The notes under the pieces: generated by a model
Told to the model about the DNA's origin: nothing
The model's database searches: none
Seen by the model: the letters and a program-made list of their open reading frames with translations, nothing else
Part shown: in pieces, positions 9,253-34,143 of the stretch
Position numbering within the stretch: the first letter of the stretch is position 1
Layout: the number at the start of each line of letters is the position of its first letter
Source: a virus
Lineage: Duplodnaviria; Heunggongvirae; Uroviricota; Caudoviricetes
IMG/VR virus record: IMGVR_UViG_2850796239_000009
Reading direction: 5' to 3' (one strand)
DNA: 56,870 nucleotides
Translations under genes and position numbers: made by a program

Positions 9253-9459
9253 GGTAGAAAATATTACAAACCATATTCACTTTAGATGCCCGTGTTGCCA
9301 TGGTTCTCAGTATAGAACATCATCTTTTGATGTTTCTGACAGAAATCCTTTCGGGGCAAAATGTATCTTTTGTAAATCAATGATGATTACATTTGATAAT
9401 ATTTCACAATACTTAAATGTTAGCCATCTGTCGCTAGATTTAAGAAAGTGAAAATGAAG

Positions 9460-12160: not shown

Positions 12161-12172
12161 GGGCGGCGACCT
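12161..12172 (+). other. Helper cosN cohesive-end site (lambda-type GGGCGGCGACCT) with flanking cosQ and cosB
   Basis: 12-mer GGGCGGCGACCT followed by CGCGGGTTTTCGCTATTTATGAAAATTTTCCGG..., the recalled lambda genome left end, ~190 bp upstream of nu1. Confidence 0.85.
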
Positions 12173-12349
12173 CGCGGGTTTTCGCTATTTATGAAAATTT
12201 TCCGGTTTAAGGCGTTTCCGTTCTTCTTCGTCATAACTTAATGTTTTTATTTAAAATACCCTCTGAAAAGAAAGGAAACGACAGGTGCTGAAAGCGAGCT
12301 TTTTGGCCTCTGTCGTTTCCTTTCTCTGTTTTTGTCCGTGGAATGAACA

Positions 12350-12895: not shown

Positions 12896-14998
<2,103 letters not shown>

Positions 14999-15026
14999 AA
15001 ACGTCCACCATTCCCACCCTTCTGGG

Positions 15027-16326
15027 CTGAGGGATCCCCACAAAATTACTGCTAATAAACCAGCACCATATTTCGGTAGGTTCTGGACAGATGGTTTAGA
15101 ACTGTGCTCAGTACTGTTCGTCTTAAAATAAGTGGCGAGTGTCGAAGAACATTCTTCGCTAACGTCAGATATGAGATAACCCGCCGGGATTTAATGCTGT
15201 TAGCCTGATATTTCAGGTGTAACCCTTTATTTTCAGCGTGATAACCGAGTAACCACATTACGATAGTGCTCAACGTTGCCAGCAGACTCAGAACCAGAAT
15301 TCTTCCTGTTGAACGACTTTTGCTGGCCCGAAGACCAAATCCGAAGCGCCCGTTCTTTTCATCACGAAAGTTTTGCTCAATCTGCATTCGCCGACTGTAT
15401 AACTTGATGATTTCTCGCGCTCTGAAGTCATTTGTACTGCTGAAGATCAACCAGGCTTCTTTTGCTGATTTGCTCTGTTCTTTGTCTGTTTTGTTTAAAC
15501 CACTCTGACCTTTCGAACGTTTCTTTTTTCGCCCTTTTGCCGATTTCTTATAGGTGTAAAAATGCCCCGGATGCTTTTTTTCCTTTCTTTAACCAGCCTT
15601 CCAGCCCCCATATATTCCGGTGTTTTACATTCAGGGCTATCCGACACTTTTAACCATCTTTCAGGCGCGTTATCGAGGCAATACTGAACGTTATTTCTGA
15701 TCCGACCAATAAAATCCCAGCCCAGAGAAGTAATATGGTGAAACCATGCGCTCTGAAATCCAGCATCCGTGACAATAATAACCCTGGCATCGGGGGGCAG
15801 GGATTGAGCAAGGGAATCAAGGAAATCATGTTGTATCAATGGATTATTTTGTTTTTCAGAAGGAACAACCTTACTCAATAACGGAATGGAACGCCCGTCA
15901 CACAGAAGGCTGGCACGAAGAACATGATGCTCCTGGGAGGGATAGCCACTCCAGTCTACGGCTATTACACATAAAGATAACTGCCGTGTCAGCATTGAAG
16001 TGATATTCCTGAAAATCATTGGAATATCGCGATGGAGCGCCTCATTACCCATGAGGCGATCAATACGTTTGATCTTATTCTTAACTTGTGCATTACCCGG
16101 CAAAAAACGTCCGATACTGGTCAGCGTCAGAGATGCTCCGTTGATTAACGCCACTGTGGCATCCATCAGGGCATTTTGTCGGTACTGATGAAATGGTGCT
16201 AAGGCATCCCGGAAGAAATTCTGACATACTTTATGAACAGGCATAGCAGTGATCTCATTGAATTGTTGGCACAAATCAGTAGATCACATAATGCTATGTC
16301 TGTCTCGTTTTCTGGGGATTCCTCAG
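15027..16326 (-). mobile_element. IS10-like (IS4-family) insertion sequence, copy 1, inserted in portal gene B
   Basis: Inverted ends CTGAGGGATCCCCA / CTGAGGAATCCCCA; 9-bp target duplication CCTTCTGGG at 15018-15026 and 16327-16335. Confidence 0.8.
15052..16274 (-). pseudogene. IS10-like transposase (copy 1), frame broken at a G run
   Basis: Two ORFs (15495-16274, 15052-15450) together match the intact 407-aa copy at 34672-35895; copy 1 has CCGGGG where copy 2 has CCGGGGG. Confidence 0.7.
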
Positions 16327-17133
16327 CCTTCTGGGGCCGGACGGCATGACATCGCTGCGTGAATATGCCGGTTATCACGGCGGTGGCAGCGGATTTGGTG
16401 GGCAGTTGCGGGCGTGGAACCCACCGGGTGAAAGTGTGGATGCAGCCCTGCTGCCCAACTTTACCCGTGGCAATGCCCGCGCAGACGATCTGGTACGCAA
16501 TAACGGCTATGCCGCCAACGCCATCCAGTTGCATCAGGATCATATCGTCGGGTCTTTTTTCCGGCTCAGTCATCGCCCAAGCTGGCGCTATCTGGGCATC
16601 GGGGAGGAAGAAGCCCGTGCCTTTTCCCGCGAGGTTGAAGCGGCATGGAAAGAGTTTGCCGAGGATGACTGCTGCTGCATTGACGTTGAGCGAAAACGCA
16701 CGTTTACCATGATGATTCGGGAAGGTGTGGCCATGCACGCCTTTAACGGTGAACTGTTCGTTCAGGCCACCTGGGATACCAGTCCCTCGCGACTGTTCCG
16801 GACACAGTTCCGGATGGTCAGCCCGAAGCGCATCAGCAACCCGAACAATACCGGCGACAGCCGGAACTGCCGTGCCGGTGTGCAGATTAATGACAGCGGT
16901 GCGGCGCTGGGATATTACGTCAGCGAGGACGGCTATCCTGGCTGGATGCCGCAGAAATGGACATGGATACCCCGTGAGTTACCCGGCGGGCGCGCCTCGT
17001 TCATTCACGTTTTTGAACCCGTGGAGGACGGGCAGACCCGCGGTGCAAATGTGTTTTACAGCGTGATGGAGCAGATGAAGATGCTCGACACACTGCAGAA
17101 CACGCAGCTGCAGAGCGCCATTGTGAAGGCGAT
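16327..17133 (+). pseudogene. B: Portal protein gpB, middle fragment
   Basis: MTSLREYAGYHGGGSGFGGQLRAWNPP...LQNTQLQSAIVKA matches recalled gpB residues ~15-283; N-terminal stub [11 protein letters not shown] at 14995-15026 is cut off by IS10-like; fragment ends at the satellite junction. Confidence 0.85.
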
Positions 17134-17261
17134 TTATGTCTATCATCTCACCGTAGTTGCCCGCATCGTTCGCCAACTCCACTGAAACCCTTGCTGCGTC
17201 TGGAATGTCGTTTTCCATGCTTTTGATGACCGTTCATCACCCTTCCAGTTTTTCGCGGTTT

Positions 17262-17315
17262 TGTGTATTGCAATGTGTATTGCAAATTGGCGATCGGGAT
17301 GGGTGTGTATTGCAA
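17262..17315 (+). repeat. Three direct TGTGTATTGCAA repeats next to attL (putative integrase arm-type sites)
   Basis: TGTGTATTGCAA at 17262-17273, 17274-17285 and 17304-17315, just upstream of int; two related copies lie near attR. Confidence 0.45.
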
Positions 17316-17333
17316 ATCTCTTGAGGGCTTTTA

Positions 17334-18574
17334 ATGGCTATTGAAAACAAACTCAGTGACAAACTGTTAAAGAGTCTTGTCGGAAAACGGCAGGACAAAC
17401 AAAAAACAATAGCGGATGGGCGCGGGTTGTCTGTGCGTGTAAGCATGGTTGGGGGATCAGCTTTGTTTTTTACTATCGTCTTGGTGGCAGGGAATCCCCT
17501 CCGGTATGGCTTACACTTGGTCGCTATCCTGACATGTCTCTTGCAACGGCCAGGCGCATGCGTGATCAGTGCCGTGAATGGCTGGCTGAAAATCTGGACC
17601 CCCGCAGGCAAATAAAACTTGCTGCCGAAAAAACTATGCAACCAGTGACCGTAAGGGATGCGCTGTTTTACTGGTACGACAATCACGCCACAACAGCCAG
17701 AAAAGAGCATGAATATTTAATAAAACGATTTGAAAAGCATATCTTCCCCTATATCGGTGATATGGCTATAGAACAGTGCAAATTACACACATGGCTTACC
17801 GTCTTTGACAGGATCAAAAAAAATGCGCCTGTTATGTCTGGTGCAATTTTTCTTGATATCAAACAGGCGTTGCGTTTTTGTCGCGTCAGGCAATACATCG
17901 CGTGCGATCCCTTTGGAGATATTAACGTAAGTTATGTCGGGCGCTCATCCGGTATAAGGGATCGCGTTCTTAATATCAATGAAACCGCTGATGTATGGTC
18001 TTATGCTTACGGTAATAATTTGCTAACTCTGTCATCAATATATAACCGAAGAATAATGGTTATCTGCCTGGTGTTTGGTTGCCGACAGCAGGAGGCGAGG
18101 CTATCCACCTGGGACGAATGGGATTTAAAAAACTGGGTATGGACAGTCCCAAAAGAGCACAGCAAAAACAAGGAGGCTATAGTAAGGCCTGTTCCTGACG
18201 GAATAAAACAATGGATCGTTAATCTTTACGCAGAAACAAAAAATCGCGGTTATGTTGTCGGTTGTGCTTTGCAAAGGGCGACAATAACAGGGGCTGCAAA
18301 CAGAATATGCAGGCGTCTTGGTCATGATACTAATGGCTTGTGGTGCATACATGATTTCAGGCGCACATTTTCCACTACGCTTAATGATATGGGGGCGGAT
18401 CCTTATATTGTCGAACTTCTTTTAGGTCATAAAGTGAAAGGGGTTGCTGGTGTTTACAATAAAAGCAGGCATATAAAGAAAAAACTTGAGGTGCTTAATA
18501 TGTGGGTTAATTACCTTAATACGATAGCAGGATTTAACAACAACGTTATCGAGCTTAATAAAGAGGTGGTGTGA
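17334..18574 (+). pseudogene. int: Tyrosine integrase (P4/CP4-57 type), frame broken in a T6 run
   Basis: MAIENKLSDKLLKSLVGKRQDKQKTIADGRGLSVRVS... switches frame at TTTTTT (17466-17471) to ...YRLGGRESPPVWLTLGRYPDMSLATARRMR... with catalytic domain (HDFRRTF, LLGH). Confidence 0.8.
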
Positions 18575-18575
18575 T

Positions 18576-18833
18576 ATGGCAATTTATTCTCTTGTTGATG
18601 AAAACGATTTGCGCACAATGAAGGACATTGATCGGTTCATTCGTGAAAAAGAGTGCATAGCACTTACCACGCTGGCAAACTCAACACGCTGGAAAATGGA
18701 GCAGGCAGGTAAATTCCCGCGACGTATCAAGATCGGTGAACGTGCTGCAGGGTATCGACTTTCAGAGGTTCAGGCATGGATCCGTGGTGAGTGGCATCCT
18801 GGATGGAAACCTGGAAAAACAAAACAGCAATAA
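18576..18833 (+). CDS. AlpA-family HTH regulator / excisionase-like
   Basis: 85-aa ORF with ...ALTTLANSTRWKMEQAGKFPRRIKIGERAAGYRLSEVQAWIRG, the AlpA/Xis MerR-like HTH pattern; immediately follows int. Confidence 0.6.
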   Translation: MAIYSLVDENDLRTMKDIDRFIREKECIALTTLANSTRWKMEQAGKFPRRIKIGERAAGYRLSEVQAWIRGEWHPGWKPGKTKQQ

Positions 18834-18846
18834 CCAGTAAATAATG

Positions 18847-18869
18847 CCCCTCATCACGAGGGGTTTTTT
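18847..18869 (+). terminator. Rho-independent terminator after int-alpA
   Basis: CCCCTC-ATCAC-GAGGGG hairpin followed by TTTTTT. Confidence 0.5.
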
Positions 18870-18889
18870 GTCTATAAGGTAAAAACGCG

Positions 18890-19468
18890 ATGAATAAAAA
18901 TATTGCCGTGACGGGCAAGGGGTACGCTCGTCCAGTGAAAAAATTCTGCGATATTCGTGATCTCGTCGTTCTGCGCTTTGATAGTGTGAACGTTCGTGTG
19001 GTGTATCTGAACGGCGATCCGTGGTTTGTTGCAAAAGATGTTTGTGCTGCGCTGGAACTAACCAATTCGCGTACGGCGTTGCAGATGCTTGATGATGATG
19101 AAAAGGGAGTAAATTTAACTTACACCCCAGGAGGAAATCAGAATATGAGAATTATCTCTGAGTCAGGTTTCTACAAACTAATAGCCCGCAGCCGCAAAGC
19201 AACGACGCCTGGCACATTTGCTCATCGTTTCAGTAACTGGGTATTCAGAAATGTGATACCAGGTATCAGAAAAACGGGGACTTATGGTATCCCGTGGGGT
19301 GCATTACAGGATTTTTCCCGCCGTAAAGAGCAATATCAAATAAGTGCCAGCGAGAAGGGGAGGGAGCTACAGGCATGTAAGCGCAAAAAGCGTGAGCTGG
19401 AGGAAGAAGAAAAAACGCTGATACGTGAATATCAGCCTGAGTTTTACTTTGGTAACCGCATTCAGTGA
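18890..19468 (+). CDS. BRO-N / KilA-N domain protein (antirepressor-like)
   Basis: 192-aa ORF with N-terminal ...LNGDPWFVAKDVCAALELTNSRTALQMLDDDEKG..., the Bro-N domain pattern. Confidence 0.6.
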   Translation: MNKNIAVTGKGYARPVKKFCDIRDLVVLRFDSVNVRVVYLNGDPWFVAKDVCAALELTNSRTALQMLDDDEKGVNLTYTPGGNQNMRIISESGFYKLIARSRKATTPGTFAHRFSNWVFRNVIPGIRKTGTYGIPWGALQDFSRRKEQYQISASEKGRELQACKRKKRELEEEEKTLIREYQPEFYFGNRIQ

Positions 19469-19801
19469 CAAAACAAAGGCGACCGCAAAAGGGTCGCCAG
19501 TGGGAACAAGGGAAAACAAAAGCATCACCAACAATGCCACATTTGCGGCTGGTGGGCAATGTGATCAGTCAGATTTGGTTCGTTCCAAGGTTTGCAACGA
19601 GAGCTTTTTCCTGTGCTCTTTAAGGAATTTCTCAAGAGCAAACGAACAAGGTGCGAATCTTTCTGATTCATGTTCATGCGCTATATTTTTGCGTCGTCTC
19701 TTACGAGTTGGTGATGGTGTTTTGGTTGATTCTGTGTCGCTCATGGTGCTGTCCTGTAAAGCAATGCGCCTGCGTTCCTCAAACTATGGCGCTGATATTG
19801 G

Positions 19802-20107
19802 CTATTCATGCTCTTTGACCTTGCGTCGCTGGAGTTCTTCACGCGCGACGGTGACGAGTTGCCCGATCTCCTCGGCTGCTTTGATGCCGATTTGTTCGAC
19901 CTTAGCCAGGGCATCCAGTGACGACACAAGGGGATTTTCTCCGCTGCCTTCTGCTTGGCGGCGGGCTATTTCTCCGCGCATGGCGGTTACGATAAATCCG
20001 GCATTGCTTTCACCGTCCAGCTTAACGGATTCCATCCCTTGCATAACATCTAGTGGGACTCTGACAGTTGTCAGTTGTGATTTTGCGTTTTTGTTAGCCG
20101 TTGCCAT
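19802..20107 (-). CDS. Putative ribbon-helix-helix DNA-binding regulator
   Basis: 101-aa ORF whose N-terminus (TTVRVPLDVMQGMESVKLDGESNAGFIVTAMRGEIARRQ) has an RHH-like strand-helix-helix pattern; divergent from the downstream operon. Confidence 0.35.
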   Translation of the reverse strand: MATANKNAKSQLTTVRVPLDVMQGMESVKLDGESNAGFIVTAMRGEIARRQAEGSGENPLVSSLDALAKVEQIGIKAAEEIGQLVTVAREELQRRKVKEHE

Positions 20108-20168
20108 TTCTGAAACTCCTAATCATCGGTGTGTTTCAGTATACACAAAAAAAGAAATACAAAAAGCC

Positions 20169-20206
20169 TTGACGTGTGTTTCATGCGCTCATAACATGAA
20201 ACACAC
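20169..20206 (+). promoter_or_regulatory. Putative promoter (-35 TTGACG) overlapped by a 12-bp inverted repeat operator
   Basis: GTGTGTTTCATG-n9-CATGAAACACAC perfect inverted repeat at 20174-20206 in the divergent intergenic region. Confidence 0.35.
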
Positions 20207-20348
20207 CGAAAGGATTGTTGAAATACAAAGAGCAACGCCCCGCAGTGCTGGGAACACATACGGGGCGTCTAACCAACAACGTAAACTAGGCTGTGTCCCT
20301 TAATCATCTGAGCTATAGTAACTGTCTGTTTACACAACATATTGAACT

Positions 20349-20798
20349 ATGGCTCGCTACGACCTTCCCGATGAGGCATGGACCATCATCAAGCCCCTGT
20401 TACCTCCTGAACCCGCCACACCACGGGCCGGACGCCCATGGGCTGAGCACCGTAAAATCATCAATGGCATGTTCTGGGTGTTATGTTCCGGTGCACCATG
20501 GCGCGATTTACCCGAACGATATGGGTCATGGAAAACTGTTTATAACCGCTTTAACCGATGGTCAAAGTCAGGCGTGATTAATATTATTTTCAACAGGTTG
20601 CTTTCGCTACTTGATGCAAACGGCTTTATTGACTGGTCTGCCACCGCGCTGGATGGCAGTAATATCCGGGCGCTGAAATGTGCCGCCGGTGCTCAAAAAA
20701 ACATCCCGATATCGACGGAGATAATGGGCCGGGTCGCTCTCGCGGCGGTTTTGGCACCAAAATCCATCTGGCAACAGACGGAAGTGGCCTCCCGTTAA
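20349..20798 (+). CDS. IS5-family transposase OrfA (copy 2)
   Basis: 149-aa ORF MARYDLPDEAWTIIKPLLPP...; A7 slippery run (GCTCAAAAAAAC) near its end feeds into orfB. Confidence 0.8.
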   Translation: MARYDLPDEAWTIIKPLLPPEPATPRAGRPWAEHRKIINGMFWVLCSGAPWRDLPERYGSWKTVYNRFNRWSKSGVINIIFNRLLSLLDANGFIDWSATALDGSNIRALKCAAGAQKNIPISTEIMGRVALAAVLAPKSIWQQTEVASR

Positions 20799-21193
20799 AT
20801 ATCGTGCTAAGCCCCGGACAAGCTCATGAAAGCCAGTTCGCGCAACGACTTCTGGACGGGATTGGCGTTCAGCGTCAGAACGGCAGCATGAAACGCCGTG
20901 GACATGCGGTACTGGCTGATAAAGCGTATTCAGGGCGCGCATTGCGCAACGAGCTGAAAAATAACGGTATAAAGGCAGTAATCCCCCGAAAGTCAAATGA
21001 GAAAATGGCATCGGATGGACGTGCACAGCTTGATCGTGATGCGTACCGCAATCGTAATGTCGTTGAACGGTGCTTTGGGCGGCTGAAAGAATATCGCCGC
21101 ATCGCCACGCGTTACGACAAAACGGCGAGAAATTACCTGGCGATGGTGAAACTGGGCTGCATCCGACTCTTTTATCAACGCTTACGTAATTAA
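20678..21193 (+). CDS. IS5-family transposase OrfB (DDE domain; likely OrfAB fusion by -1 frameshift)
   Basis: 171-aa ORF overlapping orfA in the -1 frame. Confidence 0.75.
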   Translation: MCRRCSKKHPDIDGDNGPGRSRGGFGTKIHLATDGSGLPLNIVLSPGQAHESQFAQRLLDGIGVQRQNGSMKRRGHAVLADKAYSGRALRNELKNNGIKAVIPRKSNEKMASDGRAQLDRDAYRNRNVVERCFGRLKEYRRIATRYDKTARNYLAMVKLGCIRLFYQRLRN

Positions 21194-21215
21194 GGGACAC
21201 AGCCTAGGAGCCGTT

Positions 21216-21413
21216 ATGGTTGCTGTAAATCATATACCACACCTTGTACACACACAAACGGCCTTTGTGTGGCGTTTTCTGGCACTGAGTGCCGGAGAAT
21301 CTCAAATCATCCACGTAACCGCCTGGACGGAACGCGAAGCGCGTAGCCGTTGCCCGTCCGGTTGTGTTGCTGTATTCGCTGCAAAAATCCGCCAGGGAGT
21401 GAGTCATGCTTAA
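21216..21413 (+). CDS. Hypothetical small protein (satellite operon)
   Basis: 65-aa ORF starting right after the IS5-family copy. Confidence 0.25.
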   Translation: MVAVNHIPHLVHTQTAFVWRFLALSAGESQIIHVTAWTEREARSRCPSGCVAVFAAKIRQGVSHA

Positions 21414-21591
21414 AACCTTCCGTGTATTTGCCCGAGCTGTTAACCCAATAGGCCACACAATTGGTATCGCTCAGAATGTGAAGGCTGTTAATGTTCAGAC
21501 GGCTATTGCTGCGGTGAGAAGCGAATCATCAGAATATGGCTTATCACAAGTCATTATTTCAGCAGTGTATGAATTAAAAGAGGTGCATTAA
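21406..21591 (+). CDS. Hypothetical small protein (satellite operon)
   Basis: 61-aa ORF overlapping its neighbours. Confidence 0.3.
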   Translation: MLKTFRVFARAVNPIGHTIGIAQNVKAVNVQTAIAAVRSESSEYGLSQVIISAVYELKEVH

Positions 21592-21782
21592 TGCAGGAAA
21601 TTACATTACACGAAGCCGCTGAACGTGCGCACCAGACAGAAATTATTTGCCGCCTTCTTGAGGTATACCCGAACAAAATTACAGATGCTGATATATCCGC
21701 ACTGGCGAGCCTACTGGCGCGTCTTTCGGGAAGTGTCGCTAGTTTTTTGATTGAGGAAGAAAGTAAGCTGGTGGGGGATTAA
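21591..21782 (+). CDS. Hypothetical small protein (satellite operon)
   Basis: 63-aa ORF with overlapping stop/start. Confidence 0.3.
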   Translation: MQEITLHEAAERAHQTEIICRLLEVYPNKITDADISALASLLARLSGSVASFLIEEESKLVGD

Positions 21783-22004
21783 ATGAATACAGAACGGGAA
21801 GTCTTTTTTAAATTGTTAGCATGTGCAGAAAGTTCATTAACTTTAAATAATTCAGCAAAAGCAATATTAAATATGTGGCTTGATTGCATAAATGACAATG
21901 AAGATGCAAATATTGCTTATGGCCTGTTGTCACTTATTGATGAATCAGCAGAAAAACTCAATGACGCAATAAATAGTGCCCTGCTATCAAATAAGTCGAG
22001 TTAA
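21783..22004 (+). CDS. Hypothetical small protein (satellite operon)
   Basis: 73-aa ORF. Confidence 0.3.
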   Translation: MNTEREVFFKLLACAESSLTLNNSAKAILNMWLDCINDNEDANIAYGLLSLIDESAEKLNDAINSALLSNKSS

Positions 22005-22021
22005 GTCGAGGAATAAATAAT

Positions 22022-22321
22022 ATGGAAATGAAAAATTCTGGCTTTATTGCCAGCGGCCCCGCTCGACCTGAATTTATGAACGGCGATATTTACCGCGATA
22101 AATACGGCGGCACGGTAACGATTAAAGGCGTGGCAGAACGGCGCATCACTTACCGCCGTGAGGGGTATAGCTATGACTGCGTGATGCCTGTTTATCAGTT
22201 CCGGCGTGATTTTTCCCTGGTATATGCCGCACCCCGCAGTAAGCCCATCAGCAGGGAAAAAGCGTGGGGAAATATCCAGAAAATGAAAACCATGATTAAC
22301 GGATTCAGAGGTAAAAAATGA
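22022..22321 (+). CDS. Hypothetical protein (satellite operon)
   Basis: 99-aa ORF whose stop overlaps the pri-rep start. Confidence 0.3.
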   Translation: MEMKNSGFIASGPARPEFMNGDIYRDKYGGTVTIKGVAERRITYRREGYSYDCVMPVYQFRRDFSLVYAAPRSKPISREKAWGNIQKMKTMINGFRGKK

Positions 22322-24071
22322 AACTGGCACCGAACGTAAAACAGCAGTCACGCGGCATAAAACACAAAGGAACAGAAGTAATTATTTTTGCGGGTAGTGA
22401 TGCCTGGGCACACGCGAAACAATGGCAGGAACATGATGCGCGTATGGCCGGAGATAATGAGCCTCCTGTGTGGCTTGGGGAGCAGCAGCTATCCGAACTG
22501 GATAATCTGCAAATTGTGCCGGAAGGCCGAAAATCAGCACGCATATACAGGGCCGGATATCTTGCGCCTGTAATGATAAAGGCGATTGGTCAGAAGCTGG
22601 CGGCAGCAGGCGTACAGGATGCAAATTTTTATCCTGAGGGTATGCACGGCCAGGAGGTGCAGAACTGGCGCGAATATCTGGCCCGTGAACGCCAGAATCT
22701 TTCTGATGGTCTGGTCATTGAGCTTCCGGTAAAGCAAAAGGCGCAACTTTCGCAGATGGCGGACAGTGAGCGCGCGCAGTTGCTTGCCGATCGCTTTGAT
22801 GGCGTTTGCGTACATCCTGAAAGTGAAATCGTTCACGTATGGCGCGGCGGGGTATGGTGTCCGGTCAGCACAATGGAACTTAGCCGCGAAATGGTGGCGA
22901 TCTATTCAGAGCACAGGGCCACTTTCAGCAAGCGCGTAATCAATAACGCCGTGGAAGCGTTAAAAGTTATTGCCGAACCAATGGGCGAGCCGTCTGGCGA
23001 TTTGCTGCCGTTCGCCAATGGTGCGCTTGACCTGAAAACGGGGGAATTTTCCCCGCACACGCCGGAGAACTGGATCACCACGCACAACGGCATTGAGTAC
23101 ACGCCACCAGCACCAGGGGAGAACATCCGCGATAACGCGCCAAACTTTCATAAATGGCTTGAGCACGCAGCCGGAAAAGACCCGCGCAAGATGATGCGTA
23201 TATGTGCCGCGCTGTACATGATTATGGCGAACCGGTACGACTGGCAGATGTTTATTGAGGCCACCGGAGACGGCGGGAGCGGTAAAAGTACATTCACACA
23301 CATAGCCAGCCTTCTGGCAGGGAAACAGAACACGGTAAGCGCTGAAATGACATCGCTTGATGATGCTGGTGGACGTGCGCAGGTTGTCGGGAGTCGTCTT
23401 ATCGTCCTGGCTGACCAGCCGAAATATACAGGCGAAGGAACGGGCATCAAGAAAATCACAGGCGGCGACCCGTGGAAATTAACCCGAAATATGAAAAGCG
23501 TTTCACGGCGGTAATCAGGGCGGTGGTGCTGGCGACCAACAACAACCCGATGATATTCACCGAACGGGCCGGAGGTGTGGCACGTCGTCGCGTGATTTTC
23601 CGTTTCGACAATATCGTCAGTGAGGCCGAAAAAGACAGGGAGCTACCGGAAAAGATTGCGGCTGAAATCCCCGTTATTATCCGCCGATTGCTGGCGAACT
23701 TTACCGACCCTGAGAAGGCACGGGCTTTACTACTGGAACAGCGTGACGGTGATGAAGCACTGGCAATAAAGCAACAGACGGATCCGGTTATTGAGTTTTG
23801 CCAGTTCCTGAATTTTCTGGAGGAAGCGCGCGGCCTGATGATGGGTGGCGGTGGTGATTCAGTGAAGTACACGACCAGGAACAGCCTTTACCGCGTCTAT
23901 CTGGCGTTTATGGCATACGCGGGCAGGAGCAAACCGCTAAACGTGGCTGAGTTCAGCAAGGCCATGAAGCCAGCGGCGAAAGTTTACGGGCATGAATATA
24001 TTACGCGAAAAGTTAAGGGAGTAACGCAGACCAACGCAATTACAACAGACGATTGCGACGCGTTTTTATAA
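22318..24071 (+). pseudogene. Primase-helicase (pri-rep, D5/P4-alpha-like), frame broken near 23470
   Basis: Walker A GDGGSGKST; ...KITGGDP switches frame to VEINPKYEKRF...NNNP (helicase-like C-terminus); two ORFs 22318-23514 and 23472-24071. Confidence 0.7.
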
Positions 24072-24087
24072 TTTTTTGTAAAAGCCA

Positions 24088-24325
24088 TCTACCCCATCTA
24101 CCTGAACGAAATAAACGCATATTATTCAACATGATAAGTGGGTATAGGGCTAGGTAGAAGGCTAATAAAAGCTCTCTACCTCTTCTACCTGATTTTATCA
24201 GTTTCAGGTAGCAGGGTAGACGGCAGGTAGAGGAGTCAAAAAAGCTATCTACCCGCTGAAAGCGGCGCCATTACTGACATGATGAGCATTCGGGTAGATG
24301 GGTAGAGGGGGGAGGCACAACTAAA
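24088..24325 (+). repeat. Iteron cluster / putative satellite replication origin
   Basis: At least ten TCTACC/GGTAGA-type repeats in both orientations with AT-rich spacers, directly downstream of pri-rep. Confidence 0.5.
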
Positions 24326-24355
24326 AACTTTTTAAACGAGGGGGGGTGAAAATAA

Positions 24356-24670
24356 ATGCGCATACATAAAAATCACTTAACAAACATGCCAGCCGAAAAC
24401 ATGAATCAGGGGCGACAAATGACCAAAATTCGCAGAGACAGAACACAGGCAAAATATAAAGCGTTAGACATGACAGAGCTTTCCTTAAAGGTGGCAATCA
24501 AAGCGATAGACCACCACACACGGGCAGGATACGCGAAGGAACATCCCGACCTGATAAGCGCATTCATGACCACAGCAGCGGCAAACTTTGCCACGCTGAC
24601 AGAACGGGAGATTGCCGAAGCGGAACAGGTGACAACCATCAATGTTAAAACCGGAGAGCAGACAGCATGA
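24356..24670 (+). CDS. Hypothetical protein
   Basis: 104-aa ORF; no recognisable motif. Confidence 0.3.
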   Translation: MRIHKNHLTNMPAENMNQGRQMTKIRRDRTQAKYKALDMTELSLKVAIKAIDHHTRAGYAKEHPDLISAFMTTAAANFATLTEREIAEAEQVTTINVKTGEQTA

Positions 24671-25089
24671 CAGCACAGATAGCGGCTTACGGGCGGCTGG
24701 TGGCTGACCCGCAGTTAAAGACCACCAGCAAAGGGACACAAATGGCGATGGCGAGTATGGCGGTTCCCCTGCCGTGCAGCCAGGCAGATGACGGAACGGC
24801 GACGATGTGGTTATCCGTCCTGGCGTTTGGCAGACAGGCCGACGCACTGGCAAAACACCACAAAGGCGAACTGGTGAGCGTGGCGGGTAACATGCAGGTA
24901 AGCCAGTGGACAGGCCAGAACGGCGAAACGCGGCGGGGCTGGCAGGTTATCGCAGACAGCGTAATCAGTGCGCGAACGGCGCGACCGGGCGGCAAAAAAG
25001 GCCAGCAGGGGCAGGCCACTGACGCACTGAACAGGGCAAAACAACAGTCGGGGAATGATGATCCGTACGGCGATAATATACCGTTTTAA
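24667..25089 (+). CDS. SSB-like single-stranded DNA-binding protein
   Basis: 140-aa ORF with Gly/Gln-rich linker and acidic C-terminal tip DDPYGDNIPF resembling the SSB tail DDDIPF. Confidence 0.5.
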   Translation: MTAQIAAYGRLVADPQLKTTSKGTQMAMASMAVPLPCSQADDGTATMWLSVLAFGRQADALAKHHKGELVSVAGNMQVSQWTGQNGETRRGWQVIADSVISARTARPGGKKGQQGQATDALNRAKQQSGNDDPYGDNIPF

Positions 25090-25300
25090 ATTCTGCAAAC
25101 AAAAAGATGCCGGAAAAAAATAGATTTTCCGGCATGCTACATAAATCCCGACCAAAGGAAGTAAATACATTAACACGAATTATCAGCACTGAAGTTGTTA
25201 CGGCATATTTTATACAACATTGCACTTGGTTGCATGTGTTCGCATAGCAGACATCGGTAATAGAATATATTCACAATTATTTGTAATGAATGTAAAGAGG

Positions 25301-26347
25301 ATGAGTATGGTTGATTTATATTCGCCTACACAGCTTGTGCAGGTGGCTAATGCTGAAGATGTGCAAAAAAATTAAATGCGTTGTTTACCAGTTTGTTTTT
25401 CACTCGCTCGGTAATGTTTGAATCGAGAGACATTATTCTTGATACGATCGACGATCCAAATATCCCGATCGCGGCGTTTTGCTCTCCTATGGTGGGCAGT
25501 AAAGTTTCACGAGATGAGGGATACGAATCAAAAACAATTCGTCCAGGTTATATGAAGCCGAAAAGCAGCATTGATCCAAATAAGTTAGCTGTGCAGCCCT
25601 GCTGGTGTGTCACCTGAGCAATACAATGCTTTTGGGGCGCGTAATATTAAAGTTAAACAGGCGATTGTAAATCAGGCTAAAGCTATTCGTGCACGTATTG
25701 AATGGCTTGCTGTTCAGGCAATCACAACGGGGAAAAATATCATTGAGGGCGATGGTATTGAACGTTATGAGCTGGACTGGAATATAAAACCACAAAATAT
25801 CATCACTCAGTCTGGCGGTACTGAGTGGTCAGGTAAGGATAAAGAAACTTTTGATCCAAATGATGATATTGAGAGCTACGCAGAATTTAGTGAGGGCGTC
25901 ACTAATATCATCATTATGGGTGGTAATGTATGGAAGAAATACCGTTCATTCAGAGCGATAAAAGAGGCTTTGGATACCCGTCGTGGTTCTAATTCCGAAC
26001 TGGAAACGGCCCTTAAAGACCTTGGTGATTCGGTGAGTTTTAAAGGGTATATGGGCGATGTTGCGATTGTTGTTTACAGCGGGCGTTATACCGACGAGGA
26101 CGGAACAGAAAAACATTTCCTTGATCCTGATTTGATGGTGCTTGGCAATACGGCTCTTCAGGGGATTGTCGCCTATGGCGGTATTCAGGATCCGGAGCTA
26201 ATCCGAATGGGGCTGACTAAAGCCGAACTTGCACCGAAAAACTATATTGTGCCTGGTGATCCGGCTATTGAATATGTGCAGACACATTCAGCACCACAGC
26301 CAATACCGGCCCGCATCAATCGTTTTGTTACCGTTCGCATTGGCTAA
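25301..26347 (+). pseudogene. Major capsid protein paralog (lambda gpE-like) encoded by the satellite; two homopolymer frame breaks
   Basis: MSMVDLYSPTQLVQVANAEDVQK (compare gpE MSMYTTAQLLAANEQKF), then ...ITQSGGTEWS...DTRRGSNSELETALKDLG...GDVAIVVYSG... alignable with the helper gpE at 31416-32441; breaks at the A7 run 25365-25371 and CCC at 25597-25599. Confidence 0.75.
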
Positions 26348-26356
26348 GGGGGAGCA

Positions 26357-26698
26357 ATGGCTACTCATTACACTGAACTCATGGCTGGCACTGAAGCACT
26401 GGTGACTACGCTGGGGATATTTTCAGCTAATAAAGGGGTAATTCCTGCATTTACGCCACTGATGCAGGAAGATGCAACAGGTGCACTGGTGGTATGGGAT
26501 GGTTCGAGCGTAGGTAAAGCGGTTTATGTTTCCGCTGTACAAATCGACACCGCGAAAAAAACACAGGCTCAGGTCTATAAGACAGGTGTCTTAAATGTTG
26601 ATGCTCTGAACTGGCCTGAGTCTGTTAAAGAACTGTCAGTAAAGGTTGCAGCGTTTGTTGGCTCAGGTATTTCTGTTCAGCCGCTGGCTCGTGTGTAA
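26357..26698 (+). CDS. Head decoration protein paralog (lambda gpD-like) encoded by the satellite
   Basis: 113-aa ORF with ...AFTPLMQEDATGALVVWDGSSVGKAVYVSAVQID... alignable with helper gpD (...[35 protein letters not shown]...). Confidence 0.7.
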   Translation: MATHYTELMAGTEALVTTLGIFSANKGVIPAFTPLMQEDATGALVVWDGSSVGKAVYVSAVQIDTAKKTQAQVYKTGVLNVDALNWPESVKELSVKVAAFVGSGISVQPLARV

Positions 26699-26709
26699 AG
26701 GGGGATACA

Positions 26710-27093
26710 ATGCAGAATGATTACAATGACCTTAAGCCAATTGCCGAAATGATGTACCCGAATCCAGCTGTAGAGGAATTAAAAGCTATCGCTGACAAAA
26801 TGTGTTTAAGCGAGCGCCTTGTTGATATGAATCAGGTGATGGAAATTACAACCCTGAGTCGTCGTACACTGCTAAACCTTGAGGCTAGTGGAGAGTTCCC
26901 GGAGCGTGTGCAGGTTACGGAAGGGCGTAAGGCCTGGTATTTAAGTGAAGTGATCGACTGGATAAATAATATTCCTCGCGCTTCTGAATATTGCCGCGTA
27001 CCTGTCCCAAAAAAGCCAGATGCGGCGCTATGCCTCAAGATTGAGCGTGTACGCCGCAATGCACGGGATGGTCGCTATAAGCTGATTGGTTGA
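26710..27093 (+). CDS. AlpA-like HTH DNA-binding protein
   Basis: 127-aa ORF with ...MEITTLSRRTLLNLEASGEFPERVQVTEGRKAWYLSEVIDWINN, a MerR/AlpA-like HTH pattern. Confidence 0.45.
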   Translation: MQNDYNDLKPIAEMMYPNPAVEELKAIADKMCLSERLVDMNQVMEITTLSRRTLLNLEASGEFPERVQVTEGRKAWYLSEVIDWINNIPRASEYCRVPVPKKPDAALCLKIERVRRNARDGRYKLIG

Positions 27094-27149
27094 TGAAATT
27101 AGGGCCCGCTCTGGCTGGCGGGTCCTTTCCGGTGATCCGGTAGGCTACG

Positions 27150-27161
27150 GGGCGGCGACCT
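27150..27161 (+). other. Satellite cos site (cosN GGGCGGCGACCT, helper-like cosQ, divergent cosB)
   Basis: GGGTCCTTTCCGGTGATCCGGTAGGCTACGGGGCGGCGACCTCGCGGGTTTTCGCTATTTATGA matches the helper cos at 12131-12195 almost base for base, then diverges. Confidence 0.75.
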
Positions 27162-27282
27162 CGCGGGTTTTCGCTATTTATGAGCCTTTTTCGGGTGCTG
27201 GTGGTGGTTTTGTTGTTCGCTCTATCTCTATGAATAAAAAGGAAAAGATAAAGCCAATACACCAACCTGAAACATTACTTAA

Positions 27283-27837
27283 GTGGGGATATTGATGAAA
27301 TCGCACCTGATGAACAAAAAAAACATGGCGCAAAGCTGCCGTGTAAGTGCGACAGCGTTCGACAAGTGGGGAGTGACTCCCGTTGAACGTAAAGGCCGCG
27401 AGGCGTTTTATGATGTTGCCAGCGTAATAGACAATCGGGTTAGCAATGCAATTAACCAGATTACAGACGACAAAGGCGAGATTGATGATGATGAACTCCT
27501 ACGAGTCAGGATCAGATTGCTGACAGCACAGGCAGAGGCGCAGGAGCTTAAAAACGAGCGCGAACGCGGCGACGTTATTGATACAGCGTTTTGTATATAC
27601 GTGCTTTCAAAATTGGCGAGTCAGATTTCTTCAATCATGGACAGCCTGCCGCTTGCCATGACAAGGAAGTTTCCCGACATGAAGCCGTCTATGCTGGATG
27701 GACTGAAAAAAGAAGTTATCAGAGCCTGTAACGCATGCGCAAAACTTGACGAAAACATACCGCTGATGCTGTCCGATTATCTGATGGAAACTGCCGGAAA
27801 CGTACCGGATAAGTTGCAGCCGAATAAAGATAAGTAA
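27283..27837 (+). CDS. Satellite terminase small subunit (Nu1-like; divergent N-terminal domain)
   Basis: C-terminal part ...LTAQAEAQELKNERERGDVIDTAFCIYVLSKLASQISSIMDSLPL... parallels Nu1 ...[46 protein letters not shown]...; true start may be Met-10 (27310). Confidence 0.7.
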   Translation: MGILMKSHLMNKKNMAQSCRVSATAFDKWGVTPVERKGREAFYDVASVIDNRVSNAINQITDDKGEIDDDELLRVRIRLLTAQAEAQELKNERERGDVIDTAFCIYVLSKLASQISSIMDSLPLAMTRKFPDMKPSMLDGLKKEVIRACNACAKLDENIPLMLSDYLMETAGNVPDKLQPNKDK

Positions 27838-27848
27838 CGTAGTACGCT

Positions 27849-28130
27849 ATGACTGAATCCGAAATACTGCGATTAATCCGCCGTGCTTGTGGAATCAGCA
27901 AGCAGCATGACGAACAGGCCACGCAGCCGGACAGCGTGACCGCAGATAATTATGTGCGTGTAGTGGCTGAGGTGATGCGCCGTGACGGTATTGAGCTTAA
28001 CGGCGTGGATATGCGCAACATACGAACAAGAGTCCTTGAGTTGCTGGCATATCGTCGCCGTTCTCAACAACGGAGGGAGAGCGCGAAAAATACTTACCAG
28101 TGGAAGAAGCCGGAACGATTGCGGCGGTAA
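27849..28130 (+). CDS. Hypothetical protein
   Basis: 93-aa basic ORF after terS. Confidence 0.3.
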   Translation: MTESEILRLIRRACGISKQHDEQATQPDSVTADNYVRVVAEVMRRDGIELNGVDMRNIRTRVLELLAYRRRSQQRRESAKNTYQWKKPERLRR

Positions 28131-28560
28131 CTTGCTGATATTCCCGATAACGCAAAATTGCGCTGGCTGACTTGTTGCATTGCAAAAAGTTAAGCAGGAA
28201 GGCACGGCCTGTAAGATGGGATGCAGTAAGTAGTTCAAGGCTACCTTGTGCTGGCACGCACAGTTAAGCCGTCGGTGCTGGATATCCCCCACTGGGGAAA
28301 AGCTGGCTACATCCCTCACATCTGAGGACTGATAACGCGACATTGCGCTGGCTGGCAAAGTGCAAAATTGCACGATGGCCTAACCCATTGATTATTTCGA
28401 AAACCTGCAATGCAGGAAATCGGGGAAGTAAGCCTAAGCTATTGATTGTTTCGAAAACCCCCATTGGGGGATGTCGGGAAAGTAAGACTAACCCATTGAT
28501 TCTTCCACAATCCTCAATTTGAGGAGGCCGGAACGTCTACATAGCTGCATCGCCGTAATG
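28130..28560 (+). repeat. Array of direct repeats each containing a different perfect palindrome (covarying stems)
   Basis: Three tandem ~54-bp units (28383-28545) share ATTGATTnTTyC...TCGGGrAAGTAAG and hold CCTGCA-A-TGCAGG, CCCCCA-T-TGGGGG, CCTCAA-T-TTGAGG; related pair GATAACGCnAnATTGCGCTGGCTG at 28146 and 28331 with CGCAA-AA-TTGCG, TTGCA-T-TGCAA, GTGCAA-AA-TTGCAC. Confidence 0.6.
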
Positions 28561-28843
28561 ATGATTCAGCCCACCAGCCAAATCAGCACAGCAACGACAG
28601 AATAGCCCGACACAGAAAAACCACGAATATGGGGTTTTTGTTATGACATGGTCATGATGACCACTCATACAAAACAGGTAAAGCCCACCAGCCTGATTAA
28701 AGGTTAACCGGAAAAAAGCCAGGTATCCAATCTCGATATGGGGATCCCTATATCGACATTAACGCCCACTAAAACTGTGCATATATGCATAGAAAAAGCA
28801 TCCACCAGCTTTATGACGGATGCCGCTCATCTTATAAATAATC

Positions 28844-28866
28844 GTGTATTGCAGTGTGTATTGCGA
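28844..28866 (+). repeat. Two GTGTATTGC repeats next to attR (arm-type-like)
   Basis: CGTGTATTGCAGTGTGTATTGCGA, related to the TGTGTATTGCAA repeats at attL. Confidence 0.4.
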
Positions 28867-28946
28867 CTCCTTTAAACGATAGGTCTGAGCATTCGTAATG
28901 TACTGTTTTTAAATTTTATTTTTTCCTGTCTTTTCATAAAGGCGAT

Positions 28947-29718
28947 GTATGCCGCCACCATTGAGAGTGAGCTGGATACGCAGTCAGCGATGGATTTTAT
29001 TCTGGGCGCGAACAGTAAGGAGCAGCGGGACAAGCTGACCGGCTGGATTGGTGAAATTGCCGCGTATTACGCCGCAGCACCGGTCCGTCTGGGAGGCGCA
29101 AAAGTGCCGCACCTGATGCCGGGGGACTCACTGAACCTGCAGACGGCTCAGGACACGGATAACGGCTACTCCGTGTTTGAGCAGTCACTGTTGCGGTATA
29201 TCGCTGCCGGGCTGGGTGTCTCGTATGAGCAGCTTTCCCGGAATTACGCCCAGATGAGCTACTCCACGGCACGGGCCAGTGCGAACGAGTCGTGGGCGTA
29301 CTTTATGGGGCGGCGAAAATTCGTCGCATCCCGTCAGGCGAGCCAGATGTTTCTGTGCTGGCTGGAAGAGGCCATCGTTCGCCGCGTGGTGACGTTACCT
29401 TCAAAAGCGCGTTTCAGCTTTCAGGAAGCCCGCAGCGCCTGGGGGAACTGTGACTGGATAGGCTCCGGTCGTATGGCCATCGATGGTCTGAAAGAAGTAC
29501 AGGAAGCGGTGATGCTGATAGAAGCCGGACTGAGTACCTACGAGAAAGAGTGCGCAAAACGCGGTGACGACTATCAAGAAATTTTTGCCCAGCAGGTCCG
29601 TGAAACGATGGAGCGCCGTGCAGCCGGTCTTAAACCGCCCGCCTGGGCGGCTGCGGCATTTGAATCCGGACTGCGACAATCAACAGAGGAGGAGAAGAGT
29701 GACAGCAGAGCTGCGTAA
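28947..29718 (+). pseudogene. B: Portal protein gpB, C-terminal fragment
   Basis: MYAATIESELDTQSAMDFILGANSKEQRDKLTGW...LRQSTEEEKSDSRAA matches recalled gpB residues ~284-533; resumes exactly where 16327-17133 stops. Confidence 0.85.
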
Positions 29719-34124: not shown

Positions 34125-34143
34125 TCCCTTGTTTTATCACGGG

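What the first reader, a model, noticed from the sequence alone, without database searches (positions are those of the whole stretch)
20169..21215. IS5-family copy sits between the satellite's operator-bearing promoter and its replication operon
The divergent intergenic region between the putative RHH regulator (minus strand) and the rightward operon contains a promoter-like TTGACG...TAACAT overlapped by a perfect 12-bp inverted repeat (GTGTGTTTCATG-n9-CATGAAACACAC), plus a second 8-bp inverted repeat (ACGCCCCG-n18-CGGGGCGT). The 916-bp IS is inserted about 80 bp downstream of this, before the first operon gene at 21216, so the operon leading to pri-rep is physically separated from its likely promoter/operator. 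This would immobilise the satellite's replication module, or put it under IS-derived outward transcription.
Basis: partly seen in the sequence, partly recalled or inferred. Interest (0 to 1): 0.5.

Follow-up and report, generated by a model that had tools for sequence, protein, structure and literature searches.

The report
Insertion sequence splits satellite control region
A 916-bp insertion sequence sits 11 bases ahead of the first gene of a phage satellite's replication operon, cutting the operon off from its repressor-controlled promoter and splitting a conserved antisense RNA that I could not find described; the insertion itself is an ordinary, strain-specific event.

Summary
An ISSfl7-like IS5-family element (20289-21204, + strand, TA duplication in a CTAG target) lies between a promoter (TTGACG-17-TAACAT, 20169-20197) and the icd-like first gene (ATG 21216) of the operon that ends in the primase gene. 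IS-free alleles, 99.8-100% identical, occur in 48 complete E. coli genomes. None of 5,426 genomes has this junction, so the insertion is recent and private.

The host element is a known type: a helper-embedded PICI inside a lambdoid prophage portal gene.

Comparison with diverged homologues supports the operator reading. Three half-sites change together between elements, and the -35 and -10 hexamers are conserved.

The "second inverted repeat" needs a different reading. It is the terminator hairpin of a leftward RNA. All 60 wobble pairs fall on the minus strand and none on the plus strand, and a U-rich tail follows. Upstream lie a second hairpin that exposes an anti-Shine-Dalgarno loop and a conserved -10 inside icd. 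Together they predict an ~83-nt cis-antisense RNA that matches no Rfam family.

The IS landed in that RNA's loop, at one of five CTAG sites in the satellite. Silencing by polarity is the likeliest outcome but is untested, because the IS is co-oriented and the ribosome-binding site is intact.

The parts
17138..28935 (+). Helper-embedded PICI satellite, including the IS: int, alpA, bro, <ylcI-like, icd-like, 4 small ORFs, DUF4222, primase, ssb, capsid, decoration, alpA2, terS. It lies between the two halves of a lambdoid portal gene. Bounds are approximate.
   Evidence: Colinear with the annotated IS-free locus L001. Same gene order in 10 other genomes. This type is described in PMC10111431.
19802..20107 (-). 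YlcI/YnfO-family gene (101 aa), the putative RHH-like repressor, transcribed divergently from the operon.
   Evidence: NCBIfam NF041551, E=1.6e-17. Its N-terminal strand residues vary together with the operator sequence. Fold not confirmed.
20126..20143 (-). Operator copy O1 (TCGGTGTGTTTCA, 20126-20138) overlapping the predicted -10 of the ylcI promoter (TATACT on the minus strand, 20143->20138).
   Evidence: I9. CAGTATACAC is nearly invariant in 7 diverged homologues. The promoter assignment is inference.
20169..20209 (+). Operon promoter: -35 TTGACG 20169-20174 and -10 TAACAT 20192-20197. It is overlapped by operator copies O2 (20174-20185) and O3 (inverted, 20195-20209).
   Evidence: TTGA of the -35 and TA...T of the -10 are invariant, while the operator core co-varies in all copies.
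20220..20288 (-). 3' two-thirds of the predicted antisense RNA, left behind by the IS: the 3' arm of stem-loop 1, the terminator hairpin (20235-20269) and the U-rich tail (to about 20222).
   Evidence: Covariance model hit, 50.3 bits, E=3.4e-10, with stem-loop 1 broken. Hairpin statistics.
20287..20288 (.). Left copy of the TA target duplication (target CTAG, 20286-20289).
   Evidence: Comparison with the IS-free allele. The other two IS copies in the window are also flanked by TA.
20289..21204 (+). ISSfl7-like IS5-family insertion sequence, 916 bp. orfA 20349-20798, orfB 20678-21193, A7 slippery run 20695-20701 consistent with a -1 frameshift.
21205..21206 (.). Right copy of the TA target duplication. 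It regenerates the TAGGAG ribosome-binding site.
21205..21257 (-). Promoter and first ~18 nt of the predicted antisense RNA, now cut off from its body. -35 TTGTGT 21257->21252, -10 TATGAT 21234->21229, start predicted near 21222. The 5' arm covers the anti-AUG and anti-SD.
   Evidence: It is the only minus-strand promoter-like site in 21200-21340. A TAnnnT hexamer is kept in all 29 distinct upstream sequences although the overlapped codons change. Transcription is inferred.
21216..21413 (+). icd-like gene (65 aa), first gene of the rightward operon. SD AGGAG at 21206-21210.
   Evidence: NCBIfam NF033153, E=1.2e-17. Annotated the same way in IS-free genomes.
21406..24071 (+). Rest of the operon: three small ORFs, a DUF4222 gene (22022-22321) and the primase/helicase gene (22318-24071). 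The primase gene has a 1-nt deletion at 23468 relative to the intact 584-aa allele.
   Evidence: The deletion lies in a C4 run and may be an assembly error.

Best explanation
Shown:
- A copy of an ISSfl7-like IS5-family element transposed into a CTAG tetranucleotide in the 190-bp control region of a helper-embedded PICI.
- In intact elements that region holds two back-to-back promoters. One drives a small YlcI/YnfO-family protein. The other drives the icd-like ... primase operon. Three copies of an element-specific operator accompany them.

Inferred:
- The YlcI-like protein is the repressor, probably with a ribbon-helix-helix fold.
- Intact elements also encode an ~83-nt leftward antisense RNA. 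It starts inside the first codons of icd. Its first hairpin shows an anti-Shine-Dalgarno loop and pairs over the start codon. It ends at a GC-rich terminator hairpin.

Where the IS went: into the loop of that first hairpin, 8 bp before the ATG. It therefore does two things at once. It moves the promoter and operators 918 bp away from the operon, and it separates the antisense promoter from the RNA body and terminator.

Most likely outcome (inferred): strong polarity. The roughly 400 nt between the orfA stop and the IS end is translated only after a rare frameshift, which favours Rho-dependent termination. The operon in this copy would then be largely silent, and the transposase would become the first cistron of the repressor-controlled transcript.

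The choice of site is explained by target preference rather than selection.
For: IS identity, ends and target.

Precise IS-free alleles: 48 complete genomes, 99.8-100% identical, each 917-918 bp shorter. No genome among 5,426 has the junction, and no hit was found in species-representative genomes or viral contigs.

Promoter and operators: conserved TTGA/TAnnnT, and an operator core that co-varies in all three copies across Escherichia, Enterobacter, Superficieibacter, Intestinirhabdus and Pectobacterium.

Antisense RNA:
- 34 distinct sequences, 13 hairpin pairs, 98.4% paired, 8 pairs with compensatory changes, 0 of 500 shuffles as good.
- Of 67 non-Watson-Crick cells, 60 are G.U on the minus strand and 0 on the plus strand.
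- Mean hairpin energy -21.3 kcal/mol (minus) against -16.9 (plus).
- The two-hairpin fold recurs in nearly all 34 sequences, always more stable on the minus strand, and the loop carries the anti-SD in most.
- 42 distinct sequences, 23 pairs, 97.5% paired, 13 compensatory.
- The model finds an intact copy in 97 of 100 loci, all on the minus strand overlapping the icd start. Only a broken copy is found in the window.
- The tail averages 6.1 U in 12 nt.
- The -10 is retained across His/Tyr/Ser codon changes.

Target choice: only 5 CTAG sites in 10.9 kb, against 41 expected from base composition.
Against: - No expression data of any kind were available. The promoter, the operators, the antisense RNA and the polarity are all sequence inference.
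- The antisense -35 is weak and not conserved, and the U-tract is interrupted.
- The IS is co-oriented, has no + strand terminator-like site and leaves the SD and ATG intact, so read-through could keep the operon expressed.
- Helper late transcription has been proposed to read through such satellites (PMC10111431), which could bypass the block.
- The covariance-model alignment is fitted to the structure, which inflates the pairing counts. The MAFFT-based counts do not share this bias.
Confidence: 0.62

Rival explanations
1. The IS does not silence the operon but deregulates it. Read-through from the native promoter and from the transposase promoter, or from a promoter inside the IS, gives low constitutive expression of icd to primase. 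The antisense brake is lost at the same time.
For: The IS is co-oriented and its transposase stop (21193) lies 22 nt before an intact AGGAG-N5-ATG. The IS has no + strand terminator-like site. Internal promoter-like sites exist at 20559-20587 (9/12) and 21063-21092 (8/12, with extended TG). The antisense RNA is split.
Against: The promoter-like sites are no better than chance expectation. A constitutively expressed Icd-like division inhibitor would probably be counter-selected; this assumes it shares the activity of P1 Icd, which is my own knowledge and not tested here. Classical IS insertions in leaders are usually polar.
Confidence: 0.2
2. The insertion has little consequence, because in a helper-embedded satellite the operon is driven mainly by antiterminated late transcription of the helper prophage, which would read through the IS.
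For: The satellite is co-oriented with the helper late genes. Late read-through into such satellites is hypothesised in PMC10111431.
Against: The promoter, three operators and the antisense RNA are conserved from Escherichia to Pectobacterium, including elements for which no prophage embedding was established, so the local control region is under selection. In this window the helper is itself damaged: an ISSfl1 copy sits 29 nt into the portal gene.
Confidence: 0.13
3. The IS at this position is an assembly artefact, caused by three near-identical IS copies in the window.
For: Three copies at 99.8-100% identity lie within 57 kb. The assembly shows systematic 1-nt homopolymer deletions.
Against: Both junctions are exact. 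They carry a TA duplication inside a CTAG, the same as the other copies, and removing IS plus duplication restores the IS-free allele base for base.
Confidence: 0.03

Closest known systems
Polar IS insertions in operon leaders (classical IS1/IS2/IS5 mutations in gal, lac, bgl; my own knowledge)
   Same: A transposable element sits between promoter and first cistron. It has a short target duplication, and the outcome depends on orientation (polarity or read-through).
   Different: Here the same insertion also bisects a convergent antisense RNA gene. It also places the transposase under a satellite's repressor-controlled promoter.
Helper-embedded PICIs (Tommasini, Mageeney & Williams 2023, PMC10111431)
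   Same: int-alpA, Bro zone, primase/DUF5906 replication zone and late zone. Integrated in, and co-oriented with, the portal (lambda B) gene of a lambdoid prophage.
   Different: In the two sections I read (gene content and discussion), that paper reports C4/isrK-type immunity RNAs in Bro zones. Those sections do not mention the ylcI-operator-antisense module described here. This copy carries an IS.
Phage P22 immI region: mnt / Pant-arc-(sar)-ant (my own knowledge)
   Same: A small repressor gene is transcribed divergently from the operon it controls. Operators overlap the promoter. A ~70-nt cis-antisense RNA from the opposite strand covers the ribosome-binding site of the controlled gene.
   Different: No detectable sequence homology. 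hhalign aligns the R-x-P-x-(E/D)-V strand-helix motif with Arc and Mnt in register, but at a probability of 5% or less. The target gene is icd-like, not ant.
P1/P7 immI c4-icd-ant and the P4 CI RNA (Rfam C4 RF01695, isrK RF01394; my own knowledge)
   Same: An RNA regulator placed immediately upstream of an icd gene and acting on its ribosome-binding site.
   Different: C4 and CI are processed from the same strand as their target and act through loop complementarity. Here the RNA is on the opposite strand, and nothing matches any Rfam model, even at E<=10.
Type I toxin-antitoxin pairs with an RBS-overlapping antisense RNA, such as SymR/SymE (my own knowledge)
   Same: A cis-antisense RNA covers the SD and AUG of a small, potentially toxic protein.
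   Different: icd-like is the first gene of a long replication operon, so the RNA could control the whole operon. Toxicity of this Icd-like protein is not established.

Membership tests
IS5 family (ISSfl7-like) | DDE transposase with the IS4/IS5-type N-terminal domain | tested here: met
   PF13340 DUF4096 E=1.6e-30 in orfA; PF01609 DDE_Tnp_1 E=4.9e-22 in orfB.
IS5 family (ISSfl7-like) | Terminal inverted repeats and a short target duplication at a YTAR/CTAG site | tested here: met
   The terminal ~16 bp are perfect inverted repeats, extending imperfectly to 28 nt at 86%. TA flanks all three copies, in CTAG/CTAA targets. The IS-free allele has a single CTAG.
IS5 family (ISSfl7-like) | Near identity to a named reference element | tested here: met
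   100% identity over query positions 4-927 to a copy annotated 'IS5-like element ISSfl7 family transposase' (H4).
IS5 family (ISSfl7-like) | Transposase made by a -1 programmed frameshift | not testable with these tools
   The A7 run at 20695-20701 and the orfA/orfB frames fit a -1 shift. Frameshifting itself was not tested.
Helper-embedded PICI | int plus alpA at the upstream end, a Bro zone, a primase/DUF5906 replication zone and a late zone | tested here: met
   Annotation of IS-free loci and precomputed Pfam hits.
Helper-embedded PICI | [quoted passage not shown] | tested here: met
   Portal gene fragments flank the element at 14995-17137 and 28936-29718.
Helper-embedded PICI | Induction and excision with the helper | not testable with these tools
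   Needs experiment. In this window the helper portal gene also carries an ISSfl1 copy.
Ribbon-helix-helix repressors (Arc/Mnt/CopG type) | N-terminal beta-strand followed by two helices, forming a dimeric fold | tested here: inconclusive
   - NCBIfam places it only in YlcI_YnfO_N.
- No Pfam hit above threshold; PF07704 scores E~0.02.
- The single-sequence AlphaFold model gives helices at 19-23, 34-52 and 59-100, but the N-terminus has pLDDT<50.
- hhalign aligns the strand motif with Arc and Mnt in register, at a probability of 5% or less.
- No PDB sequence match.
Ribbon-helix-helix repressors (Arc/Mnt/CopG type) | Repeated operator sites overlapping the controlled promoter, with specificity residues in the strand | tested here: met
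   Three copies per element. The core differs between elements and changes together with the strand residues. Binding itself was not tested.
Cis-encoded antisense RNA over a ribosome-binding site (P22 sar-like) | Conserved RNA structure on the strand opposite the target gene | tested here: met
   60 G.U cells on the minus strand against 0 on the plus strand. Covariation. Minus-strand folds are more stable in 34 of 34 whole-RNA folds and in 21 of 25 hairpin-only folds.
Cis-encoded antisense RNA over a ribosome-binding site (P22 sar-like) | Own promoter and intrinsic terminator | tested here: inconclusive
   A TAnnnT -10 is conserved in 29 of 29 distinct sequences, but the -35 is weak. The terminator is a GC-rich hairpin with a U-rich but interrupted tail. 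No transcript data.
C4 / isrK / P4 CI immunity RNAs | Match to Rfam RF01695 or RF01394; same strand as the target | tested here: not met
   No hit at gathering score in the window. None at E<=1 in 1 kb, and none at E<=10 in 131 nt, of the IS-free region. The structure lies on the opposite strand.

The most novel reading that the evidence does not exclude
The divergent ylcI-like repressor, its three operators and the antisense RNA together could form the maintenance-of-repression ('immunity') switch of Gram-negative PICIs. It would be functionally parallel to P22 immI and would keep the icd-to-primase operon off until the helper is induced. The copy in this window would then be a natural mutant in which one IS uncouples both layers and puts a transposase under satellite control.
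Probability: 0.35. Interest if true: 0.65.

Novelty: new member of a known kind. Interest (0 to 1): 0.42.

Why it matters
The IS insertion is routine genome decay in an IS-rich, Shigella-like background. It matters only as a marker that this satellite copy is probably disabled.

Checking it exposed something more useful. The replication operon of a very widespread group of enterobacterial phage satellites lies behind a conserved control region. One icd allele alone is indexed in 9,749 blocks of the assembly collection. That region contains a small divergent repressor, co-varying operators and a structured antisense RNA over the first gene's ribosome-binding site.

For Gram-negative PICIs the activator AlpA is known, as cited in PMC11773190. 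To my knowledge no repressor equivalent to the staphylococcal Stl has been defined. If confirmed, this module gives a concrete, testable model of how these elements stay silent.

Tried and rejected
1. C4/isrK/CI-type immunity RNA upstream of icd: rejected. No Rfam match and the structure is on the other strand.
2. Second inverted repeat as a + strand leader attenuator: rejected. The + strand shows 67 mismatched cells against 7 on the minus strand, and no U-tract follows on the + strand.
3. Finding the same insertion elsewhere or identifying the source genome: junction searches in species-representative genomes, viral contigs and complete E. coli genomes found nothing.
4. Isogenic IS-free comparator: CFSAN029787 carries both the satellite and ISSfl7, but its flanks are only 94-99% identical, so it is not the same lineage.
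5. Outward promoter at the IS right end: nothing better than 8/12, and that site lies 110 bp inside the IS.
I ran no further search on it.
7. Frameshifts in int (17450) and primase (23468) as evidence of decay: not relied on. Most 1-nt gaps in the window relative to the references, and all four within the satellite part compared with L001, are deletions in G/C or A homopolymers, which suggests assembly error.
8. Literature on an antisense RNA at icd-like genes of satellites: two full-text searches found nothing relevant. That is not proof of absence.
Full report
**1. The observation**

- TTGACG-17-TAACAT lies at 20169-20197. It is the only native + strand promoter-like site found by the consensus scan.
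- The perfect 12-bp inverted repeat lies at 20174-20185 and 20195-20206 (I3).
- ACGCCCCG-n18-CGGGGCGT lies at 20235-20268.
- A 916-bp element spans 20289-21204, with terminal inverted repeats (I1).
- The repeat search also showed a third copy of the half-site, TCGGTGTGTTTCA, at 20126-20138 (I9, D16).

**2. The insertion sequence**

- orfA (20349-20798) carries DUF4096 and orfB (20678-21193) carries DDE_Tnp_1.
- The two frames overlap at an A7 run (20695-20701) in the arrangement expected for a -1 frameshift.
- The element is 99-100% identical to copies that RefSeq annotates as ISSfl7-family IS5-like elements. These are rare in E. coli: 45 of 5,426 genomes, with up to 36 places in one.
- The window holds two further copies, at 10675-11589 (minus strand) and 49842-50757. 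All three are flanked by TA inside CTAG or CTAA.
- The window also holds two copies of a 1.3-kb ISSfl1.
- This IS load points to a Shigella flexneri-like or enteroinvasive E. coli background. I could not identify the source record.

**3. The IS-free state**

- A 4.8-kb query around the site matched 48 complete E. coli genomes at 99.8-100% identity. Coverage was always 81%, in two pieces that abut.
- The IS-free sequence reads ...CGTAAACTAGGAGCCGTTATGG. Removing the IS plus one TA from the window restores it exactly.
- No complete E. coli genome contains the junction.
- The insertion is therefore recent and private.
- Only 8 native bases lie between the target CTAG and the ATG.

**4. The host element**

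- Annotation of IS-free loci gives this order: int, alpA, bro, a leftward YlcI/YnfO-family gene, then rightward icd-like, four small ORFs, DUF4222, a D5_N/DUF5906 primase, ssb, capsid, decoration, a second alpA-like gene and terS.
- The whole element lies between two halves of a lambdoid portal gene.
- This is the helper-embedded PICI described by Tommasini, Mageeney and Williams (PMC10111431).
- It is extremely common. The exact 65-aa Icd-like protein is indexed in 9,749 blocks of the assembly collection.

**5. Promoter and operators**

I aligned the 190-bp spacer of seven homologues that are 70-97% identical, and read the same region in other genera.
- TTGA of the -35 and TA...T of the -10 are invariant.
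- The 10-12-nt core after the -35 differs between elements. Examples are GTGTGTTTCA, GTGCGATTCA, GTGTAAGACA, GTGCTATTCA and GTGTGGCCGCAC.
- Within each element the same core recurs next to the ylcI start and again, usually inverted, just after the -10.
- The residues of the predicted N-terminal strand of the YlcI-like protein differ in step with the core.
- Repeats conserved within an element but divergent between elements are the signature of specific operators.
- CAGTATACAC, which reads TATACT on the minus strand at 20143->20138, is nearly invariant. It is the likely -10 of the ylcI promoter and is overlapped by O1. This is inference.

Whether the protein is a ribbon-helix-helix remains open.
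- It matches only the NCBIfam YlcI_YnfO_N model.
- It gives sub-threshold hits to PF07704.
- It has no PDB sequence match.
- The single-sequence model is poor at the N-terminus.
- It aligns in register with the strand-helix motif of Arc and Mnt, but without significance.

**6. The second inverted repeat is a minus-strand RNA hairpin**

The repeat is conserved immediately upstream of icd-like genes from Escherichia to Rahnella, Pectobacterium and Rosenbergiella.
- In 21 of 25 variants the hairpin is more stable when folded from the minus strand, with a mean of -21.3 against -16.9 kcal/mol.
- On a MAFFT alignment of 34 distinct sequences the 13-pair helix is 98.4% paired. Eight pairs show compensatory changes, no shuffle in 500 reached the observed values, and pairing collapses to 38-56% when partners are slid.
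- Of the 67 cells that are not Watson-Crick, 60 are G.U on the minus strand and none is G.U on the plus strand. This is the decisive point, because a DNA palindrome or a plus-strand RNA would not show that asymmetry.
- On the minus strand the hairpin is followed by a U-rich tail, with a mean of 6.1 U in 12 nt. The flanking sequence is otherwise unconserved.

**7. A two-hairpin antisense RNA**

- Folding the minus strand from just inside icd to the tail gives the same architecture in nearly all 34 homologues.
- The 5' hairpin has 10-14 pairs. Its 5' arm contains CAU, opposite the start codon, and its loop carries CUCC/CCUC, opposite the Shine-Dalgarno sequence, in most homologues. The terminator hairpin follows.
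- In the 21 distinct first-hairpin sequences, the first hairpin contains 43 G.U pairs that would be mismatches on the plus strand.
- The 86-nt RNA of the IS-free allele folds at -33.6 kcal/mol, z = -3.6.
- A covariance model built from 13 sequences finds a full-length match in 97 of 100 loci. Every match is on the strand opposite icd and overlaps its first codons.
- On the resulting alignment, 23 pairs are 97.5% paired and 13 have compensatory changes. This alignment is fitted to the model, which favours the structure.
- The only promoter-like site on the minus strand is TTGTGT-17-TATGAT at 21257->21229.
- Its -10 is TAnnnT in all 29 distinct upstream sequences (TATGAT, TATGCT, TATAAT or TAGACT). 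The overlapped codons encode His, Tyr or Ser and Asn, Gln or Lys. The three key -10 bases are thus kept while the amino acids change, which argues for a constraint at the nucleotide level.
- The -35 is weak and variable.
- No Rfam family matches, and two literature searches found no description.
- That the RNA is made, and that it represses icd translation, is inference.

**8. What the IS did**

- The CTAG target lies in the loop of the first hairpin (GCUC-CUAG-UUUA).
- In the window the model finds only the 3' part, at 20220-20293, with the first helix broken.
- The antisense promoter and about 18 nt of the RNA are stranded at 21205-21257.
- The sense promoter and its operators are now about 1.0 kb from the ATG instead of about 100 bp.
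- The target duplication regenerates TAGGAG, so the ribosome-binding site and the ATG are intact.
- The transposase reading frame points the same way as the operon and ends 22 nt before the ATG. No + strand terminator-like site lies in the IS.
- No convincing outward promoter exists at the right end.

I consider Rho-dependent polarity across the largely untranslated second half of the IS the most likely result. It would silence the operon and make the transposase the first cistron of a repressor-controlled transcript. Deregulated read-through, or bypass by helper late transcription (hypothesised in PMC10111431), cannot be excluded without RNA data.

**9. Why this site**

CTAG is strongly under-represented. 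The 10.9-kb satellite has 5 sites against 41 expected from base composition, and only 2 of the 5 are intergenic. Given the element's target preference, hitting this site needs no selective explanation.

**10. State of the rest of the element**

- int (17450) and the primase gene (23468) each carry a 1-nt deletion relative to intact alleles.
- Within the satellite stretch compared with L001 (17138-24400) the window shows no substitutions and only 1-nt deletions in G or C runs. In the wider comparison with L111, most 1-nt gaps lie in G/C or A homopolymers.
- That pattern looks like sequencing error, so I do not count these deletions as decay.
- The helper prophage is genuinely damaged. An ISSfl1 copy sits 29 nt into the portal gene, so satellite excision could not restore that gene.

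**11. Verdict**

The finding is real, and its core reading is right: the IS stands between an operator-bearing promoter and the replication operon. The insertion itself is ordinary. The functional claim is untested. The second repeat needs a new reading as part of a conserved antisense RNA. Together with the co-varying operators, that RNA is the more interesting result.

Noticed in passing
window 15024-16329 and 34617-35923: Two inverted copies of a 1.3-kb ISSfl1 (IS4-like), 99.9% identical. The first sits 29 nt into the helper prophage portal gene, with a 3-bp TCT duplication. The stretch 32492-36555 is not colinear with the reference prophages, so a rearrangement between the copies is possible.
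   Followed up: partly
window 10675-11589 (minus strand) and 49842-50757 (plus strand): Two more copies of the same ISSfl7-like element, each flanked by TA. The first has a 1-nt deletion at IS position 695 that would break orfB.
   Followed up: partly
window 17450, 23468, 24306, 24339, 25364, 28293, 41649, 43786, 46190: The window has 1-nt deletions in G/C or A homopolymer runs relative to closely related genomes. Two of them frameshift the satellite integrase and primase genes. The pattern suggests long-read assembly error rather than real pseudogenes.
   Followed up: partly
window 12129-12194 and 27118-27183: A 66-bp stretch upstream of the helper's nohD (small terminase) gene recurs at 94% identity in the satellite, just before its own terS. 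It may be a shared cos or packaging site, as reported for such satellites in PMC10111431.
   Followed up: no
window 21251-21280: A + strand hairpin followed by a T-run (CACACAAACGGCCTTTGTGTG GCGTTTTCTG) lies inside the icd-like coding sequence and overlaps the predicted antisense -35. It is conserved in Escherichia-type alleles but not in other genera.
   Followed up: no
L007 (GCA_045573345.1), locus 676-2319: A sister satellite with the same ylcI-icd control region is integrated in the helper's major capsid gene instead of the portal gene. It has a 411-aa integrase and lacks the bro gene.
   Followed up: no
window 19565-19744 (minus strand): A 59-aa ORF lies directly downstream of the ylcI-like gene on the same strand. 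Similar small ORFs are annotated in diverged homologues (L012, L013, L017). It matches no family.
   Followed up: no
window 4486-4736, 5436-5625, 8883-9298, 53332-53530: Rfam hits elsewhere in the prophage: two tRNAs, STnc100, a cspA-type 5' UTR and IS009.
   Followed up: no
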